In this document: positions 3,222-9,422 of the stretch, one piece after another
How the letters are laid out: each line of letters starts with the position of its first letter
Numbering within the stretch: the stretch's first letter is position 1
Virus record (IMG/VR): IMGVR_UViG_3300008107_000014
Span: 1 to 64,000 of that record
Source of the DNA: a virus
Length of the DNA stretch: 64,000 bases
Strand: one strand, 5' to 3'
Translations under genes and position numbers: made by a program
Notes under the pieces: generated by a model
Seen by the model: only the letters and a program-made list of their open reading frames with translations
What the model was told of the DNA's origin: nothing
The model's database searches: none

Positions 3222-3375
3222 TATTAAAAAGGATGTACTAAAAATGTGTTGGTACATGCGAGGAATGTCTTACAACGAAGGCATGCACATGAGTTATGAC
3301 GAAAGGCAAATCGTTGGAGAGATAATAAAAGATAATCTTGAAACAACTAAGAAAACAGGGTTACCGTTCTTTTAA
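3139..3375 (+). CDS. -1 frame extension of the gp26-like gene (gp51-like / lambda GT-like chaperone segment)
   Basis: Open -1 frame KFFRGKVLSLSESEILLYADQLDRQAQDIKKDVLKMCWYMRGMSYNEGMHMSYDERQIVGEIIKDNLETTKKTGLPFF*. First ATG is at 3244. Its stop overlaps the stop of the convergent gene at 3372-3374. Confidence 0.7.
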   Translation, partial: KFFRGKVLSLSESEILLYADQLDRQAQDIKKDVLKMCWYMRGMSYNEGMHMSYDERQIVGEIIKDNLETTKKTGLPFF

Positions 3376-3818
3376 AGTTCGGTAACTAGTTCTTTAATTA
3401 GTACTACTTCTTTACCTTCTAGCTGTTTCCCAGCTAGAATTTTTTTGACTGCAATTTTATATTCTGGTTGAGACATTTTCTCAGAATATGCTTTGCTCAG
3501 AGACTGTTGTAAAATTACTTTGTCCGGTGCATACAATGGTGCTGATCTCAAATAATCAGCAAGTACTTTTTTAAATTCTTCAATTTCTTTTGGATTATAC
3601 TTTGATTTAACTTCACCGGAATCTTTTTCGTCTTGATAAAATGGTTTTAATGCAGGATCAAAATCCTTGGCAAACATTCCGCCAAACTTAGCAGCGCCCT
3701 TGAGTGCAGCACCAACGACACCGTTGCCTTGAGATGCTGTCTTAACAGCATCACCGGCCATCTTGGTTATATCGTCTTGCGTCTTATAGGCGTTGGGATT
3801 AAATTCGTAGAATTTCAC
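3372..3818 (-). CDS. Hypothetical protein, possible internal virion protein
   Basis: 148 aa; N-terminus MKFYEF resembles that of the upstream gene; ATGA overlap with that gene. Confidence 0.6.
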   Translation of the reverse strand: MKFYEFNPNAYKTQDDITKMAGDAVKTASQGNGVVGAALKGAAKFGGMFAKDFDPALKPFYQDEKDSGEVKSKYNPKEIEEFKKVLADYLRSAPLYAPDKVILQQSLSKAYSEKMSQPEYKIAVKKILAGKQLEGKEVVLIKELVTEL

Positions 3819-5455
3819 TTTAGGCTGATCCGTTTAAGCATGGTCATTACTTTTGTAGTTGTTGCAGGATCTGCTGCAACTAGAGCAACAAATGCTTGAC
3901 CACAAGCTGTCATTTGTGTACGATTAAGTTCTTTACCTTGTTTAATTGCAGTAACAGCCTGTGTTAATACTCGAGCATCTACACCCGGTAACAGGCTTGC
4001 TAGTTCGTTAACATTCAATGTGCCTTTCACATCGCCTTCTTCGCCGTCTTGTCCAGTAAATCCTGCTTTCAGTCCTGCCATGAAGCCGCCGCCACTACCA
4101 CCGGCTTGTTGTTGGCCGCCTTGTGCTGCTCCGCCGCTAGCCTGTTGACCACCTGCACCACCGGCTTGTTGCTGCCCTTGTGCTTGTTGGCCACCTGCGC
4201 CAATGCCTGCTCTAGCTGCATCCTGTGCTGCTGCTAGAAAAATCTTTGATAGTTGACCTCTGCTCAGTGCTTCTAGCAGTGCATTATACTCTTGTTCTAA
4301 TGATTCACCATAGCTAGGCTGGACATTGCGTTCCCACTCTGCATCACCTTGTGCTCCTGCCGCTTTCTTTTTCTTTTGTTTAGGAGGTACTGGATTCTGT
4401 TGTGGTTCCTGCGGTTTCATTGTAACTGGATTAGATCCCATTTGTGTTTTAACAAACTGGTCTAATGCACTGCTAGTACTGTTTGCACCGTTAGCTGGTT
4501 GACCTGCTCTCTTTGCTCTTTTAGCAATTGCCCCTGGAGTTTGACTTGGTCCGGCACCTGCAACTCTACCACCACCCTGTGGACGATTGCCTGCGGGTTG
4601 TGTTGGTGCTGCACTGCCGTCCGGTGCAGGTTCAGCTGCTGGCTCAGTTGCTGTTGCATTAGCTGCTGGAGCTGCTTGTTGTCCAACCGTACTACGTGGG
4701 TCAGTGGTGCTAGGAACTCCGCCTTGCACTCCCGGAGCAACAGGCGTACCTGGTTTATTTGTCATAGTTGTTGGATCAAACGTACCGCCTGTGCTAATAG
4801 TTTGTTTTCCACCAGCTGTTTGATTATTAAAATTAGGTTTTGCTGCTCCTGCTGCTTTATCCGCAGCATCGGATGCATCTCTATCAGCTTGAGTTTTAAA
4901 TGGCTCTCCAGTATTACCGTCAAATCCAAAACCAGTGCCGCCGGCCTTTGGACTAGCACCCGGTGTTCGTGCTGCTGTCCCTGCATCAGCTGCTGGCTTT
5001 TCAGCGCCTGCTTGTGGTTGTTCTGCACCAGAGGCTGCTGGATCTTTTGTTGCATCGGCACCGGCAGCTGTTTTTTTAGCTGCATCGCCGGCGGCTGCTG
5101 GTTCGTCCATGGTAGGTTCAATACGTTTTGGACTTCCGCCACCGGCTGCATTATCAACTGCACCCTTAGTATCTCCACCAGACTGAGCCATGATAGCTTC
5201 TGCACCCTTTGTAGGAATGCCCTTTGACTTTAGAAACTGAATAACATTTTCGGGCTCTGCTTGATCACCTGTTTGCCCTAGGTAGCTCTTAAATTCAGAG
5301 TATAACTGATTAGCCATGGTACCAGTTTGTAACTTACCAGCAGCAGTTGAGCTAACCTTAGATAGTGAAGTTAATCCAAAAGTTTTTAACGCACCCATTG
5401 GTGCTTCAGTTAAGTTATTTGTATTTTCGTTTTTATTGAATTCGTTAAATTTCAT
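3815..5455 (-). CDS. Low-complexity Ala/Gly/Gln/Pro-rich protein, probable internal virion protein
   Basis: 546 aa; MKFNEF...LTE-A N-terminus; long disordered centre; TAAATA at 5484-5489 on the minus strand. Confidence 0.6.
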   Translation of the reverse strand: MKFNEFNKNENTNNLTEAPMGALKTFGLTSLSKVSSTAAGKLQTGTMANQLYSEFKSYLGQTGDQAEPENVIQFLKSKGIPTKGAEAIMAQSGGDTKGAVDNAAGGGSPKRIEPTMDEPAAAGDAAKKTAAGADATKDPAASGAEQPQAGAEKPAADAGTAARTPGASPKAGGTGFGFDGNTGEPFKTQADRDASDAADKAAGAAKPNFNNQTAGGKQTISTGGTFDPTTMTNKPGTPVAPGVQGGVPSTTDPRSTVGQQAAPAANATATEPAAEPAPDGSAAPTQPAGNRPQGGGRVAGAGPSQTPGAIAKRAKRAGQPANGANSTSSALDQFVKTQMGSNPVTMKPQEPQQNPVPPKQKKKKAAGAQGDAEWERNVQPSYGESLEQEYNALLEALSRGQLSKIFLAAAQDAARAGIGAGGQQAQGQQQAGGAGGQQASGGAAQGGQQQAGGSGGGFMAGLKAGFTGQDGEEGDVKGTLNVNELASLLPGVDARVLTQAVTAIKQGKELNRTQMTACGQAFVALVAADPATTTKVMTMLKRISLK

Positions 5456-5489
5456 AGCGATGCATTATCCTAATATCGTAGTGTATTTA

Positions 5490-5978
5490 TTAGAACGAAG
5501 CGATGCTTCGTCATTCGTATTTGCTTCGCAAACACTCATATTTTTCTTCTTCTTAATAATAGAAGCAGTGTTATGTGCGAAGCACTTTAAATATTATCTA
5601 GATTCGTCAGTCACAATTGCCCGTTTGCACGGGCAAAAAAATGTAAAAAACATTATCTGAGTTCTTACAGTCACTAGCGTTATAGCATTACTAAGGCGGT
5701 TGTCCGGTACCTCTAGCTACGTTCTTGTCCTTGCGGAAACAACGGCAGTTTATATAATATACGCTAACATAATATATAAACCTGGGATATTTCTTCCCTC
5801 ATTGGGCTCTATTAAATTATTTTCAAACAGCAAAACCGCGGCAGTTGCGATCTACGTCCTGTAAAGGATAGTTGCTGAGTGCTCTTGGCGGCAAGAGACT
5901 TCCGTCCGGGTGTAGTTAAACCCCTTTTCCTAGGCGCCCGATATTAGCTGGCGCTTGCTTTAAACCGCGTTATTTTGC
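5490..5978 (-). ncRNA. Candidate large structured non-coding RNA (alternatively a structured DNA cis element)
   Basis: Only large gap in an otherwise fully coded window. Contains more than 10 hairpins, two GCAA tetraloop stems on the minus strand, nested long-range helices and a duplicated 22-23 nt motif. Confidence 0.55.
5593..5674. repeat. Imperfect direct repeat ATTATCT..TTC..CAGTCAC x2 flanking a hairpin and A-tracts
   Basis: attatctagattcgtcagtcac (5593-5614) and attatctgagttcttacagtcac (5652-5674), with hairpin ttgcccgt-ttgc-acgggcaa at 5617-5636. Confidence 0.7.
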
Positions 5979-6416
5979 CTAGATTTGTTGAAGTTTGATA
6001 ATATGCGAACCGTGTACACGTACTTGAATATGACCATTATAATAGTCATTTGTTTCTAAAACCTTACGTGCAAATTGCTCACGAGCCTCGATGTAGCTGC
6101 ATTCTGATTTGGATTTACAGTAAAAAAGTATTTCTCTGGTGAAGTTTTCTGCGCCTAGTGCCACAACATCTTTGGTTAGTTCAGGGCTAGAACCGTAATA
6201 TTCTTGCCAGTCACTGTCAATTTTGCTGCGGATTTTCTTCTTTTTCTTTGTGCCGTTTTTAAGTTTTACTGTTTTATAGGTGGTTTTGCTGAATTTGGCT
6301 AATTTTTTGCCTATGTATTTGCGCCCAGAGAAATTATTTGTGATAAGATAGACAAAGCCGATACAATCTTCTGGTAGTTCTGTGATAATTGTATTCTTGT
6401 ATAGCCATGTCATCAC
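5979..6416 (-). CDS. Stand-alone GIY-YIG endonuclease (catalytic domain only)
   Basis: GFVYLITNNFSGRKYIGKK motif, YYGSS, conserved Glu (YIEAREQ), C-terminal YYN, and a Lys-rich insert. Confidence 0.8.
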   Translation of the reverse strand: MMTWLYKNTIITELPEDCIGFVYLITNNFSGRKYIGKKLAKFSKTTYKTVKLKNGTKKKKKIRSKIDSDWQEYYGSSPELTKDVVALGAENFTREILFYCKSKSECSYIEAREQFARKVLETNDYYNGHIQVRVHGSHIIKLQQI

Positions 6417-6643
6417 GTAGTTATCTTGGGGGGTCTGCCTAGTATTCCTTTTCTGGCCTCTTTTCTTGCCTTTTGTTTATCTTGTATTTCGTTGCGCCTT
6501 GTGCTTGCTTCGTTGCGAATTTCGCTGAGCCAATATCTTGCCTTAATTCCTGCCTCTTTTGATTTCTTATACTCAAACCGATCCTGCCACTTAAAATATT
6601 GCTGAAAAGCATAGATCATTTTGTCGTGGCTGTCTGAGCTCAT
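6413..6643 (-). CDS. Small basic hypothetical protein
   Basis: 76 aa ORF overlapping both neighbours by 4 nt. Confidence 0.65.
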   Translation of the reverse strand: MSSDSHDKMIYAFQQYFKWQDRFEYKKSKEAGIKARYWLSEIRNEASTRRNEIQDKQKARKEARKGILGRPPKITT

Positions 6644-8415
6644 ACAATATCTACATCGTTTGCATAGCTAGTGAAGCCGTTTTCTTTGACAACACGTAGC
6701 ACTTGATTAACACGATTTGTTAAATCGTCTCTATGACTAATTAAGAAAATGTTTTTATCACGTTCACGGGCCATCTTTTTAAGGATAGCAATTGAACTTT
6801 CAACTCCGCTAGCATCCATGCCGCTGTCTACTAACTCGTCAATAAACAGTAAATTAATACCTTGATACAAGTTTTCCCAAACATCACGGAAAGAAAAACT
6901 TAGACTTAGAATCAAACGATTACGCTCGCCTCTAGATAAGTTATCAAAGTCTAGATCCTGCCCAAGCTGTGTGATCAAAACTGTTAAATCGTTTTGAAAT
7001 TTAACTTGATGCGGTAATCCGATCCGATCTAGATAGTAAGTTAATCGATTGTTTAAGAAACTTAGATTTTGATCGATGATCTTTTTGCGAATAAATGAAT
7101 CTTTGTTAGTCAGCAGCTTTAACAAGAACTCTTGATGGTCTTTTAATCTTGTTAAGTTATTAATATTATCCCAATCAATGACCTGTACTGCTGTATTTTT
7201 AAGTTCGTCTACTTGATCTTGATAAGGATCTGCTTCTGCGGCTTTTGCCTTAGCATCTTTTTCTAAATTATCAAGAGTGTTTTTATGATTTAATGCTTGT
7301 TCTAAAGTATCGTAGGTAACTTTAGGACAATCTGCTAGTGGCCCTAGTAAAGTTAATGCTTCTTTAAACTCTGCAAGTTCTTGTTCAAAGCCTGCAACTG
7401 CTTGACTGCTTTCGTTGCGTTGTGTTTGTTTAGCAGAAACCATTGTTTCGTGCTTCTCGTCATGCACATCTTGTCCACAACTATGGCACTTGTGTTCTGC
7501 AAGCAATAAAATTTCTTGATCTAGCTTGTCTAAAACACGTTGTTCTTTATCTAATGTAGTTTGTTGTCTAGCAATCAATGAAGTAATGCTGTCTACATCT
7601 TTACGATGCTTGTTCCACTCAATTAATGCACGTTGATCTGCAATCTCTTTATCGATGTCAATGCTTTGCATTGTCTTGATGTCTTTGTTTAGACGTGCAA
7701 CAGCTTCACTATTAGTCTGCAACCATAGTTTTTGCTTGCGTTCAAGTGAGTCGATGCTAAGTTGAATCTTGTCGTTGCTTACTTTGATTGTTTCAATCTT
7801 GGTATTTTCTTGTGAGATAAGATCTTTGTTGATACGGATGCCTTCTTTAAGTGCATCTGCTTTCTCACTAAGGATAGTAATACCTAATAGCTGTTCGATG
7901 ATAGCACGTTGATCTGCTGCCTTCATAGACAAGAATGGTTCGGTGTATGTGTTCAACGCAAGAATATGTTTGAACATATCATGTGTCATTCCGAATACTT
8001 CTTCAATTGCTTTCTGCGTTTCACGTGAATCGCCTTGGCTTTCGTCTTGATCTTGTGCTTTTAATTCTAAACCGTTGATTGTAAACTTCAATAAGTTGGG
8101 TTTACGACCGCGTTCAATCTTATAATCGATGCCGTCCTTTTCAAAGCTCATAGTAACTAGCATGGCTTTGCTGTTGATCTTATTAACTAAGTTGTCTTTC
8201 TTAATGTTTGTTAATGCATTGCCGTAGATAGCATAGCTAAGACCGTTAATAATAGTAGTCTTACCGGTGCCGTTGCGTGATCCGCTGCCATCTCCGCCTA
8301 GGTCTAAGTTCTCACCTAGTACTAAAGTTAAATGTCCTTTGTCAAAACTAACAGCCTGGGTTTGATTACCCACGCTCATAAAGTTCTTAACAGTTAAATT
8401 CTTAATTTTGATCAT
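6640..8415 (-). CDS. gp46: Recombination endonuclease ATPase subunit (Rad50/SbcC-like)
   Basis: Walker A NGTGKTT, zinc hook CHSC, signature LSRGE, Walker B LFIDE, H-loop ISH, coiled coil. Confidence 0.95.
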   Translation of the reverse strand: MIKIKNLTVKNFMSVGNQTQAVSFDKGHLTLVLGENLDLGGDGSGSRNGTGKTTIINGLSYAIYGNALTNIKKDNLVNKINSKAMLVTMSFEKDGIDYKIERGRKPNLLKFTINGLELKAQDQDESQGDSRETQKAIEEVFGMTHDMFKHILALNTYTEPFLSMKAADQRAIIEQLLGITILSEKADALKEGIRINKDLISQENTKIETIKVSNDKIQLSIDSLERKQKLWLQTNSEAVARLNKDIKTMQSIDIDKEIADQRALIEWNKHRKDVDSITSLIARQQTTLDKEQRVLDKLDQEILLLAEHKCHSCGQDVHDEKHETMVSAKQTQRNESSQAVAGFEQELAEFKEALTLLGPLADCPKVTYDTLEQALNHKNTLDNLEKDAKAKAAEADPYQDQVDELKNTAVQVIDWDNINNLTRLKDHQEFLLKLLTNKDSFIRKKIIDQNLSFLNNRLTYYLDRIGLPHQVKFQNDLTVLITQLGQDLDFDNLSRGERNRLILSLSFSFRDVWENLYQGINLLFIDELVDSGMDASGVESSIAILKKMARERDKNIFLISHRDDLTNRVNQVLRVVKENGFTSYANDVDIV

Positions 8416-9422
8416 AGGTTATGGTAAATGTCCAGCAATAGGTTCTTGTCAAAGGCATCGGATTCGATGGTTGTTAGTTGATTAACAACAATAGTGTCAA
8501 CACTTTCAAATGTAATGTCGCCTACAAATGCGTTATCACCTACTTCTTCTTTTTGCGGAATTAACATCAGCTCTCTTAAGCTGAATTGTTTCATAAATGT
8601 TTCTTTGATAAAGTTTGCTTCTTCAAAGCTTAGTGGCAAATCAATGTTTACCCTGGCATGCATCTTATCTCGCAGATGCTTTTCTGGTTCGTCGAGTAGC
8701 TGACTTAGTTTGAATACTCTAAATACAGGTTGATCCGGCCAAGTCTTGTATTGTGGCTTACCTCCCCACTCTAAGATCATCATACCACGATCGTCGTCGC
8801 CTGCATCTGCGTAGTTATGTGGGAAAGCATTGCCCATATAGACAATGTTTCCGCGTTCTTGACGCTTATGGAAGTGTCCAGTAAACACGTATTCTTGATT
8901 TACAAAGTGATTACTTTGTAATTGTCCGTGATCGGGCATTTGTACCATGGCATTCATATAGAAACTAGGTAGTTCTAAGTGTCCAAAGATATAACGACTC
9001 TTAAGTTTTTCAACATGTTTCCACTCGTCAGCAATCAACCAAGGCATGATAGTTACATCGCCTTCGGTAATTGCTTCGTTGACTAGAACAATGTTTGGAA
9101 ATAATCGTCCAAACTCTAAACTGTGGATCTCACGTTTGTCTTTGTAAAACATATCGTGATTGCCGGTGATGACATAGACTTTCTCAAAGCTAGCATTGAG
9201 TCGTTCTAGATTAGATACTGTATAATTCATAGTACTCACGTCAGTGGTACTACGGTTGTGATGCCAGTCACCTAAGAAGATGCAAGTTTCTGCGCCTTCT
9301 GCTTTAGCAGTATCACAAAACCATTTAACAAAGTCTTCGCAATCTTGGTTATGAATTCTACTACCGCTTTTAAGTCCAAAGTGTATATCGGTAAAACAGG
9401 CTACTTTTTTAAATAATGACAT
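8412..9422 (-). CDS. gp47: Recombination endonuclease nuclease subunit (Mre11/SbcD-like)
   Basis: Metallophosphoesterase motifs DIHFG, GD, GNHD, GH, GHFH; adjacent to gp46. Confidence 0.95.
   Translation of the reverse strand: MSLFKKVACFTDIHFGLKSGSRIHNQDCEDFVKWFCDTAKAEGAETCIFLGDWHHNRSTTDVSTMNYTVSNLERLNASFEKVYVITGNHDMFYKDKREIHSLEFGRLFPNIVLVNEAITEGDVTIMPWLIADEWKHVEKLKSRYIFGHLELPSFYMNAMVQMPDHGQLQSNHFVNQEYVFTGHFHKRQERGNIVYMGNAFPHNYADAGDDDRGMMILEWGGKPQYKTWPDQPVFRVFKLSQLLDEPEKHLRDKMHARVNIDLPLSFEEANFIKETFMKQFSLRELMLIPQKEEVGDNAFVGDITFESVDTIVVNQLTTIESDAFDKNLLLDIYHNL

What the first reader, a model, noticed from the sequence alone, without database searches (positions are those of the whole stretch)
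5490..6416. ~500-nt structured non-coding element directly downstream of a minimal GIY-YIG nuclease: candidate nuclease-RNA system
Seen: this is the only large non-coding gap in the 64 kb and it begins at the GIY-YIG stop codon. On the minus strand it forms successive helices: GCGCC/GGCGC; CUCUUG-ccgc-CAAGAG; a three-way junction closed by CAGCAA/UUGCUG containing UCCU/AGGA and GAUCGC/GCGGUU; GGGA/UCCC; GUUUAUAUA/UAUAUAAAC; UCC-GCAA-GGA; CGG-acaa-CCG; GCCCGU-GCAA-ACGGGC; and a long-range GACGG/CCGUU pairing. Both GNRA tetraloops and the G-U pairs favour the minus strand, the same strand as the nuclease. The 145-aa protein has only the catalytic core plus a very basic insert (KLKNGTKKKKKIRSK) and lacks the DNA-binding tail of I-TevI/Seg enzymes. 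I do not recognise the element as RNase P, tmRNA, a group I/II intron or a riboswitch. Inference: an undescribed large phage ncRNA that may partner the nuclease (scaffold, guide or inhibitor) or act in replication or packaging.
Basis: partly seen in the sequence, partly recalled or inferred. Interest (0 to 1): 0.8.

Follow-up and report, generated by a model that had tools for sequence, protein, structure and literature searches.

The report
Full-length Polynucleobacter-1 twin-box RNA
The only large gene-free gap of this uncultured giant freshwater T4-like phage encodes a real, triply knotted non-coding RNA of about 475 bases. Its first third is the orphan Rfam motif Polynucleobacter-1, and because the same RNA also sits without any nuclease gene in islands of freshwater bacteria, it looks like a self-standing RNA gene of unknown job, not the nuclease's partner.

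Summary
Window 5456-5978 is the only large ORF-free gap, and it encodes a minus-strand structured RNA of about 475 nt (about 5969-5495). Its 5' 135 nt are Rfam RF01718 (Polynucleobacter-1, 92.4 bits against a cut-off of 37). The rest is not in Rfam.

On a structure-blind alignment of 32 relatives, 17 helices including three pseudoknots are 93.7% paired. 52 of 86 pairs show compensatory changes, and 0 of 500 shuffles reach that.

The 3' domain carries two boxes (AGAUAAU at 5658-5652 and 5599-5593). They differ between relatives but stay identical within each RNA. I found no complementary partner in the RNA, within +-5 kb, or in the 115-kb contig.

The nuclease-partner reading is not supported:
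- In phages the RNA follows GIY-YIG (110 of 118 loci) or a PD-(D/E)XK nuclease (7 loci).
- 72 freshwater metagenome contigs and the Polynucleobacter chromosome carry the full RNA in an integrase island with no nuclease gene upstream.
- 211 cultured T4-like phages have the GIY-YIG homologue. The three loci I inspected have no large gap behind it, and no twin-box match was found in the five cultured genomes searched.

Function is unknown. This scan has reported the same family before on other DNA.

The parts
5495..5969 (-). Full-length structured ncRNA (about 475 nt), from the 5' strand of pseudoknot PK1 to the last conserved hairpin. The true transcript ends are not known.
   Evidence: Conservation across more than 100 viral contigs. 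Covariation. The same extent, including the two 3' hairpins, is found in the bacterial-island copies.
5825..5959 (-). Polynucleobacter-1 domain (Rfam RF01718): P1, P2, P3 and the three-way junction P4/P4a/P4b
   Evidence: cmscan 92.4 bits, gathering score 37, E 1.7e-18, model 1-141
5964..5968 (-). PK1 5' strand (GCGGU). It pairs with 5892-5888 in the loop of P3 and lies outside the Rfam model.
   Evidence: 98.1% paired; the outermost pair is AU:15 GC:12 UA:4
5882..5897 (-). P3 hairpin, whose loop (5892-5888) is the 3' strand of PK1
5828..5877 (-). Three-way junction P4 (5877-5872/5833-5828) with P4a and P4b
   Evidence: P4 is 100% paired, with 3 of 6 pairs showing double changes
5784..5798 (-). 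P5 hairpin GGGA..UCCC
   Evidence: 3 of 3 pairs show double changes
5748..5781 (-). P6 hairpin. Its conserved loop (5767-5761) is the 5' strand of PK2.
   Evidence: 12 of 12 pairs show double changes, 94.8% paired
5675..5680 (-). PK2 3' strand (CGCUA region), pairing with the P6 loop
   Evidence: 97.7% paired, 6 of 7 pairs show double changes
5739..5743 (-). P7 (third pseudoknot) 5' strand GUUGU, pairing with ACAAC at 5703-5699 inside the P9 loop
   Evidence: UA:18/CG:14 and GC:18/AU:14
5728..5737 (-). Lineage-specific GNRA hairpin UCC-GCAA-GGA, inserted in the P7-P8 linker
   Evidence: Present only in the window and L030 in alignment A1
5683..5719 (-). P8 (5719-5716/5686-5683) enclosing P9 (5713-5709/5697-5693) and the invariant GGUACCGG..ACCGCC
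   Evidence: P8 pair types GC:16 UA:10 CG:5 AU:1; P9 AU:19/UA:13
5651..5674 (-). Module 1: GUGAC frame, variable 8-mer, CUC, box 1. The word AGAUAAU is at 5658-5652.
5619..5634 (-). P10, a G+C hairpin between the two boxes
5592..5614 (-). Module 2: GUGAC frame, variable 7-mer, UCU, box 2. The word AGAUAAU is at 5599-5593.
   Evidence: Identity covariation with box 1: MIp 0.84, same letter in 98%, rank 14 of all column pairs. Positions +0, +1, +4, +6 and +8 change together.
5575..5585 (-). P11 hairpin GUGC-UUC-GCAC. It is optional: absent in many type II copies and in the island copies.
   Evidence: 4 of 4 pairs show double changes; absences are visible
5495..5541 (-). Two conserved 3' hairpins: the GAGC-GNRA-GCGAA type at about 5541-5518, and the terminal hairpin at 5511-5495
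   Evidence: They covary by eye in A1 and A3 and are present in the island copies
5484..5491 (-). AAUAAAUA, a T4-type late-promoter-like box 28 nt before the ATG of the next gene. It is probably not part of the RNA.
   Evidence: ATAAATA is conserved before the downstream ATG in relatives. The promoter type is recalled from knowledge of T4.
5979..6416 (-). GIY-YIG nuclease gene (145 aa), the syntenic neighbour
   Evidence: PF19835 SegE_GIY-YIG, 111.2 bits; phrog_447

Best explanation
The gap encodes the full-length form (about 475 nt, minus strand) of the Polynucleobacter-1 RNA. It is a self-contained, multi-pseudoknotted non-coding RNA gene carried by mobile elements.

In giant freshwater T4-like phages it is the last element of the gp47-gp46-small basic protein-small nuclease operon, and is probably cut out of that transcript. 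In Polynucleobacter-type bacteria it sits in an integrase island behind its own divergent promoter region.

Shown: the family, the fold, the strand, the distribution, and two boxes that stay identical to each other.

Inferred: the knotted core is a rigid scaffold that presents two identical single-stranded 7-10-nt boxes. Two copies of one trans-acting partner (or one partner in turn) read them, so the RNA acts in trans and not as a leader, a terminator or a cofactor of the neighbouring nuclease. The partner and the biological role are unknown.
For: - RF01718 hit, 92.4 bits against 37.
- Conservation runs about 340 nt beyond the Rfam model in roughly 100 of 116 loci.
- 17 helices with 3 pseudoknots on a MAFFT alignment: 93.7% paired against 81.0% shuffled; 52 pairs with double changes against 33.4; covariation 0.376 against 0.151; 0/500 shuffles; slid controls 0.04-0.08.
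- Constant G-U pairs fix the strand.
- Twin boxes: identity covariation. At least 8 different words are each identical in both boxes in about 140 of 144 loci where the twin modules could be read, excluding about 8 likely spurious pattern matches. At least 11 word switches occur on a tree of type I RNAs built without the box columns.
- Independence from neighbours. In the L024 clade the RNA ends at a convergence point with no downstream gene. In 72 metagenome contigs and NC_009379.1 the whole RNA, including the twin boxes and both 3' hairpins, lies about 100 nt from a divergent DUF6641 gene and upstream of a tyrosine recombinase, with no nuclease.
Against: - Expression, ends and processing are therefore not shown here.
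- No sigma-70-like promoter was found by the simple scan in the island copy.
- No partner for the boxes was found, so 'trans-acting' is inference.
- In phages the RNA is next to a small nuclease gene in 117 of 118 pattern-selected loci. That could still reflect a functional link in phages.
Confidence: 0.75

Rival explanations
1. Nuclease-RNA system: the RNA is a scaffold, guide or inhibitor of the small nuclease encoded just upstream.
For: In 118 viral loci found by an RNA-only pattern, 110 have the GIY-YIG gene directly upstream and 7 have an unrelated PDDEXK_15 nuclease (PF24608) in the same place. A putative further variant follows a UvdE endonuclease gene. So three nuclease folds occupy the same slot.
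Against: - The bacterial island copies have no nuclease upstream.
- The GIY-YIG homologue is single-copy in 211 cultured T4-like phages. In Melnitz, P-HM2 and phiM12 it has no large gap behind it, and no model hit was found in those genomes.
- The basic segment is family-wide and is short in an RNA-bearing relative.
- No segment complementary to anything in cis or in the contig was found.
- The slot lies in a DNA-metabolism operon (gp47/gp46), where nuclease genes are expected anyway.
Confidence: 0.07
2. Cis-acting mRNA element: a 3'-UTR stabiliser, terminator or insulator of the early operon, or a 5' leader of the downstream gene, as Weinberg et al. guessed for the motif.
For: It starts 10 nt after a stop codon with no promoter in between. 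Weinberg 2010 rated it as possibly cis-regulatory.
Against: - A 475-nt RNA with three pseudoknots and co-evolving twin boxes is far more than such roles need.
- A late-promoter-like box lies between the RNA and the next gene.
- There is no downstream gene in the L024 clade.
- Neighbours on both sides are quite different in the bacterial islands.
- No terminator-like T-run follows the hairpins.
Confidence: 0.06
3. Replication or recombination element: a transcript that primes or marks DNA (like an R-loop or ColE1 RNA II), or DNA-level twin sites (iterons, or recombinase cores that must be identical).
For: Its neighbours are recombination and repair genes in phages (gp46/gp47, small nucleases, an Hc1 histone-like protein) and integrases plus an AAA ATPase in the islands. 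A need for identity between two short cores is typical of site-specific recombination and strand transfer (general knowledge).
Against: The conservation pattern is RNA-type and strand-specific: compensatory pairs, G-U pairs and pseudoknots. The boxes are direct repeats only 59 nt apart. The T4-like phage loci show no recombinase. No other copies of the box modules occur in the 115-kb contig.
Confidence: 0.08
4. Not an RNA gene: small ORFs, or hairpins by chance in an AT-rich spacer.
For: The single-sequence fold is only modestly better than shuffles (z -2.1). Module 2 can be read as a 6-codon mini-ORF in type I and type II copies.
Against: There is massive compensatory covariation. The mini-ORF frame is lost in type III and in module 1. 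No ORF of 75 aa or more lies in the gap.
Confidence: 0.01

Closest known systems
Polynucleobacter-1 RNA motif (Rfam RF01718; Weinberg et al. 2010, PMC2864571)
   Same: The 5' 135 nt match the model end to end (92.4 bits). It has the same position behind the GOS11034/PSSM2_218-like gene that the authors noted. Their raw alignment already held a 3' 'tail' with extra helices and a pseudoknot, and it includes the Polynucleobacter chromosome copy.
   Different: - The Rfam model stops at 141 nt. The RNA here is about 475 nt.
- PK1 reaches upstream of the model.
- There is a third pseudoknot, twin identical boxes and two 3' hairpins.
- Carriers are now identified as giant T4-like phages (at least 118 contigs) plus bacterial integrase islands (72 contigs). 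In 2010 there were 16 members, and none was found in sequenced purified phages.
- Relatives with a different 5' domain (types II and III) keep only the twin-box part.
Large ornate orphan RNAs of bacteria and phages (GOLLD, ROOL, OLE, HEARO, raiA)
   Same: It is a several-hundred-nt, multi-pseudoknotted, strongly covarying RNA of unknown function, often carried by phages or mobile elements.
   Different: No Rfam hit to any of them, even at E up to 10. It is smaller than GOLLD and ROOL. To my knowledge, none of those is described with two co-evolving identical boxes.
Immunity RNAs of phages P4 (CI RNA with seqA/seqC) and P1/P7 (c4 with a1b1/a2b2). Recalled from memory; a lead, not a test.
   Same: Two short direct repeats in one transcript that must match each other because both are read by one RNA segment, and that differ between related elements.
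   Different: In those systems the complementary reader lies in the same transcript. Here no complementary segment exists in the RNA, within +-600 nt or within +-5 kb. The RNA here is also far larger and knotted.
RNA-guided nuclease systems (CRISPR, IscB/TnpB omega-RNA)
   Same: A structured RNA sits next to a nuclease gene in a mobile element.
   Different: There is no guide segment with targets and no RuvC/HNH effector. The adjacent nucleases are of interchangeable folds, and the RNA occurs without any of them.

Membership tests
Polynucleobacter-1 RNA (RF01718) | Covariance-model score at or above the curated gathering score (37 bits), full model length | tested here: met
   92.4 bits, model 1-141 of 141, window 5825-5959 minus strand
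Polynucleobacter-1 RNA (RF01718) | Helices P1, P2, P3 and the three-way junction kept by compensatory changes | tested here: met
   Helices 2-8: 88.8-100% paired, with double changes in P1 (3 pairs), P2 (4), P3 (3) and P4 (3)
Polynucleobacter-1 RNA (RF01718) | Lies downstream of the GOS11034 / PSSM2_218-like gene (authors' supplement) | tested here: met
   A GIY-YIG gene lies directly upstream here and in 110 of 118 loci; supplement text. That GOS11034 is this GIY-YIG family is my inference.
Polynucleobacter-1 RNA (RF01718) | Optional 3' tail with a pseudoknot, as in the authors' raw Stockholm file | tested here: met
   P5, P6, P8, P9 and PK2 are supported. The 'tail' and 'tailpknot' subfamilies are listed.
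Twin-box phage RNA (this scan's working name) | Two modules (xUGAC frame, variable 7-10-mer, CUC or UCU, 7-nt word) with the word identical in both, flanking a G+C hairpin | tested here: met
   AGAUAAU at 5658-5652 and 5599-5593, with P10 between them
   No such hit in window 5300-6500 even at E up to 10
RNA-guided or RNA-partnered nuclease system | Obligatory co-occurrence of the RNA and the nuclease | tested here: not met
   The RNA occurs without a nuclease in 72 island contigs. Of 211 cultured phages with the nuclease, the three loci inspected have no large gap behind it, and no twin-box match was found in the five cultured genomes searched.
RNA-guided or RNA-partnered nuclease system | A variable guide segment complementary to a target | tested here: not met
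   No matched complement was found in cis, within +-5 kb, or in the 115-kb contig. Host targets could not be tested.
Group I/II intron, RNase P, tmRNA, 6S, riboswitches | Rfam model match; for introns a split host gene; for tmRNA a tRNA-like end | tested here: not met
   RF01718 is the only family hit. ARAGORN finds no tRNA or tmRNA in the window. The flanking genes are complete.
Intrinsic terminator / simple 3' UTR | G+C hairpin followed by a T-run at the end of the operon | tested here: not met
   Two weak terminator-like matches in the 1.4-kb scan, no more than shuffles give (1.2 +- 1.0). The T-run precedes P10 instead of following it.

The most novel reading that the evidence does not exclude
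The twin-box word is an address that matches a partner outside the RNA: a nucleic acid of the host or of another mobile element, or a short product copied from one box that must re-pair with the other. Phage lineages and a chromosomal integrase island of Polynucleobacter share the word AGCGAAA, while other phages use other words. The RNA would then be a new class of trans-acting RNA, shared by giant phages and bacterial islands, that mediates host-specific or phage-island (helper-satellite, or defence-counter-defence) cross-talk through two identical boxes.
Probability: 0.12. Interest if true: 0.85.

Novelty: new variant of a known kind. Interest (0 to 1): 0.6.

Why it matters
An orphan Rfam motif that has sat unexplained since 2010 turns out to be the head of a large, triply knotted RNA. 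Hundreds of uncultured giant T4-like phages carry it, and so do integrative islands of one of the commonest freshwater bacteria.

Few phage RNAs of this size and complexity are known. Two boxes that mutate together yet have no complementary partner in sight point to an unusual recognition principle.

The bacterial copies give two practical handles: Polynucleobacter strains are cultivable, and the RNA there stands apart from phage genes. They also remove the tempting but wrong reading that it is a cofactor of the neighbouring nuclease.

Tried and rejected
- **Stop-codon idea.** All phage words seen first had U-R-A at positions 4-6. The word AGCGAAA refutes this.
- **Mini-ORF through module 2** (GUG/AUG ... 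UAA/UGA). The frame is lost in type III and in module 1.
- **Helix between the two variable 10-mers.** Own against mismatched duplex energies: -4.0 against -3.3 kcal/mol, p 0.05. Not convincing.
- **Local hairpins presenting each box.** Module 1 is weak (p 0.01). Module 2 shows nothing (p 0.41).
- **Complement of the word.** Looked for in the element, in +-600 nt, in +-5 kb and in the 115-kb contig. Nothing class-matched was found. Three extra TCTAGATAAT 10-mers all lie inside coding regions.
- **Bacterial genomes by pattern.** 8 hits against about 4 expected by chance, and none matched the profiles. The Polynucleobacter copy differs from that pattern.
- **Cultured phages.** No blastn match. 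Model R1 finds nothing in Melnitz, P-HM2, phiM12, PA5oct or Atu_ph07. R1 is weak, however: it has 2 base pairs and it misses the island copies L217 and L259. These negatives therefore count for little.
- **Basic insert of the GIY-YIG protein as an RNA-binding adaptation.** It does not correlate with presence of the RNA.
- **PDB sequence search of the nuclease.** No significant match.
- **Island proteins against the phage contig.** Only a weak AAA ATPase similarity.
Both are pairable, but neither has double changes.

Full report
**What is there.** The window belongs to a 115,207-bp IMG/VR virus contig that CheckV puts at 33% complete. A relative with the same locus is a complete 346,856-bp genome with terminal repeats. 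The closest cultured gp46 proteins, at about 46% identity, are those of the jumbo phages PA5oct and Atu_ph07.

On the minus strand the genes run: gp47-like (8412-9422), gp46-like (6640-8415), a 76-aa basic protein (6413-6643), a 145-aa GIY-YIG protein (5979-6416; PF19835, 111 bits), the 523-nt gap, then genes of 546 aa and 148 aa. These converge on a baseplate-hub gene. The gap is the only ORF-free stretch over 224 nt inside the window.

**Known part.** cmscan places Rfam RF01718 (Polynucleobacter-1) at 5825-5959 on the minus strand, at 92.4 bits against a gathering score of 37. No other family matches, even at E up to 10.

The only paper in the library that names the motif is Weinberg et al. 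2010. Its supplement gives the following:
- There were 16 members, from fresh water or estuaries plus one Polynucleobacter chromosome.
- Most lie downstream of gene family GOS11034, with possible homology to a cyanophage P-SSM2 gene.
- None was found in sequenced purified phages.
- The '3' half' is not always detected.
- The raw alignment already carries a 'tail' with extra helices and a pseudoknot.

**The RNA is much longer than the Rfam model.** A pattern drawn from the motif finds at least 118 viral contigs. blastn shows that about 100 of them are conserved with the window from about 5898 down to about 5578.

Alignments and a mutual-information scan over 100 distinct sequences give 17 helices, three of them pseudoknots:
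- **PK1:** the 5' leader pairs with the P3 loop.
- **PK2:** the P6 loop pairs with a segment 85 nt downstream.
- **P7:** this helix crosses P8 and P9.

On the structure-blind MAFFT alignment A2:
- 93.7% of cells are paired, against 81.0% in shuffles.
- 52 of 86 pairs show changes on both sides, against 33.4.
- The covariation score is 0.376 against 0.151, with 0 of 500 shuffles as high.
- Slid controls give 0.04-0.08.

Constant G-U pairs fix the minus strand. Two further covarying hairpins follow an A-rich spacer and end at 5495. A late-promoter-like AAUAAAUA (5491-5484) then precedes the next gene.

**Twin boxes.** The 3' domain holds two modules: a GUGAC frame, a variable 7-8-mer, CUC or UCU, then a 7-nt word. 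In the window both words are AGAUAAU (5658-5652 and 5599-5593).

Across loci the words counted by pattern are AGAUAAU (72), GGAUAAU (32), ACAUGAA (15), AGAUGAU (13), GGAUGAU (4), AGAUGAA (3) and AGCUGAG/A (2). GCAUAAU and GAAUAAU appear in alignment rows, and AGCGAAA elsewhere. The word is the same in both boxes in all but about four of the loci where the modules could be read.

The box columns covary by identity, not by complementarity: MIp 0.84, same letter in 98%. On a tree built without the box columns the word changes at least 11 times.

I found no complementary partner in the RNA, in its flanks or in the contig. I also found no convincing local helix that explains the identity.

**Variants.** Among 80 loci fetched through the GIY-YIG protein:
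- 30 have the Rfam head plus the tail.
- 31 have another, uncatalogued head with the same twin-box tail (type II).
- Most of the rest have a third architecture with the word ACAUGAA (type III).

The twin-box domain is therefore the universal part, and the Polynucleobacter-1 head is one of several.

**Is it the nuclease's partner?**

For:
- In the 118 RNA-selected loci, 110 have the GIY-YIG gene directly upstream.
- 7 have a PDDEXK_15 nuclease there instead, preceded by an Hc1 histone-like protein.
- A putative fourth variant follows a UvdE gene.

Against:
- The GIY-YIG homologue is single-copy in 211 cultured T4-like phages. The three loci I inspected (Melnitz, P-HM2, phiM12) show no large gap behind it.
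- Its basic segment is family-wide.
- Most telling, the Polynucleobacter copy in the 2010 alignment carries twin boxes AGCGAAA/AGCGAAA. A pattern from it finds 72 freshwater metagenome contigs.
- In the long contigs the RNA has an RF01718 head at 86-96 bits, the tail, the boxes and both 3' hairpins. It lies about 100 nt from a divergent DUF6641 gene. It sits upstream of a small tyrosine recombinase, an AAA ATPase and a second integrase, near a tRNA gene, with no nuclease gene upstream.
- In the L024 phage clade nothing follows the RNA on its strand.

The RNA is thus a self-contained unit. It is neither a leader nor a nuclease cofactor. The nuclease slot probably reflects its place at the end of a DNA-metabolism operon.

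**A lead.** The word AGCGAAA of the bacterial island also occurs in T4-like phage contigs with the GIY-YIG gene upstream. Words may therefore track a host or a partner. This is untested.

**Relation to earlier work of this scan.** Notes from other windows describe the same family ('twin-box', extended Polynucleobacter-1), also with unknown function. My analysis was done independently and agrees with them.

As far as the notes I read show, this report adds:
- the gene context of the bacterial copies;
- the replacement of the nuclease by other folds;
- the word AGCGAAA shared between island and phages;
- the fact that the 2010 raw alignment already contained part of the tail.

**Limits.** There are no expression data. 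My twin-box model R1 is weak, so absence from cultured phages is not shown. Transcript ends and function are inferred.

Noticed in passing
window 3815-5455 and 3372-3818 (minus strand): The two genes after the RNA start MKFNEFN and MKFYEFN. Their counterparts in relatives start MK[VI]x[ED][IL]I. Each is preceded by an ATAAATA late-promoter-like box. From memory, this resembles the capsid-targeting N-terminus of the T4 internal proteins. The 546-aa protein is low-complexity (A/G/Q/P-rich) and has no Pfam or PHROG hit.
   Followed up: no
window 6413-6643 (minus strand); L024:2217-2429: The 76-aa basic protein between gp46 and the nuclease gene has no Pfam hit itself. Its counterpart in the L024 clade matches the histone H1-like family Hc1 (PF07432, 36 bits).
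   Followed up: partly
L024:1666-2184 (also L059, L060, L063, L067, L071, L118): In a clade whose gp46 is 52% identical, the GIY-YIG gene is replaced at the same position by a PDDEXK_15 / RusA-like resolvase-type nuclease. There the RNA is the last feature before the convergent baseplate genes.
   Followed up: partly
L286:600-1120, L287, L290:2936-3530: This is a possible fourth variant. Twin AGCGAAA boxes flank a long hairpin in a 500-600-nt gap, in viral contigs of 37, 158 and 518 kb. In L286 the gap follows a UvdE UV-endonuclease gene; in L290 it lies near a DNA ligase gene. There is no RF01718 hit and no significant R1 hit, so membership is unproven.
   Followed up: partly
L217:3093-9440 and other loci L213-L284: The bacterial island around the RNA holds a DUF6641 gene, a variable ORF, a 188-198-aa tyrosine recombinase, two unknown proteins (one with the motif SPYYWWWxYLRRN), an AAA ATPase and a 420-aa integrase, next to a tRNA gene. 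The type of the island (satellite, defence island or other) is unknown.
   Followed up: partly
L211:7368-8030 (Pseudomonas phage PA5oct): The syntenic region of the closest cultured relative, between gp46 and the baseplate hub, has a 663-nt unannotated gap. It folds far better than shuffles (z -9.1). Neither RF01718 nor my twin-box model matches it.
   Followed up: partly
L051, L064, L065 (alignment A1): Three contigs carry internal deletions that remove one box module and neighbouring helices. In L064 the deletion joins at a TGTT microhomology. They may be defective variants or assembly errors.
   Followed up: no
window 5583-5576 and 5530-5523 (minus strand): GCUUCGCA of hairpin P11 is perfectly complementary to UGCGAAGC in the penultimate hairpin, and the single-sequence MFE fold pairs them. 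This could be an alternative or tertiary contact. P11 is absent in many relatives, and I did not test covariation.
   Followed up: no
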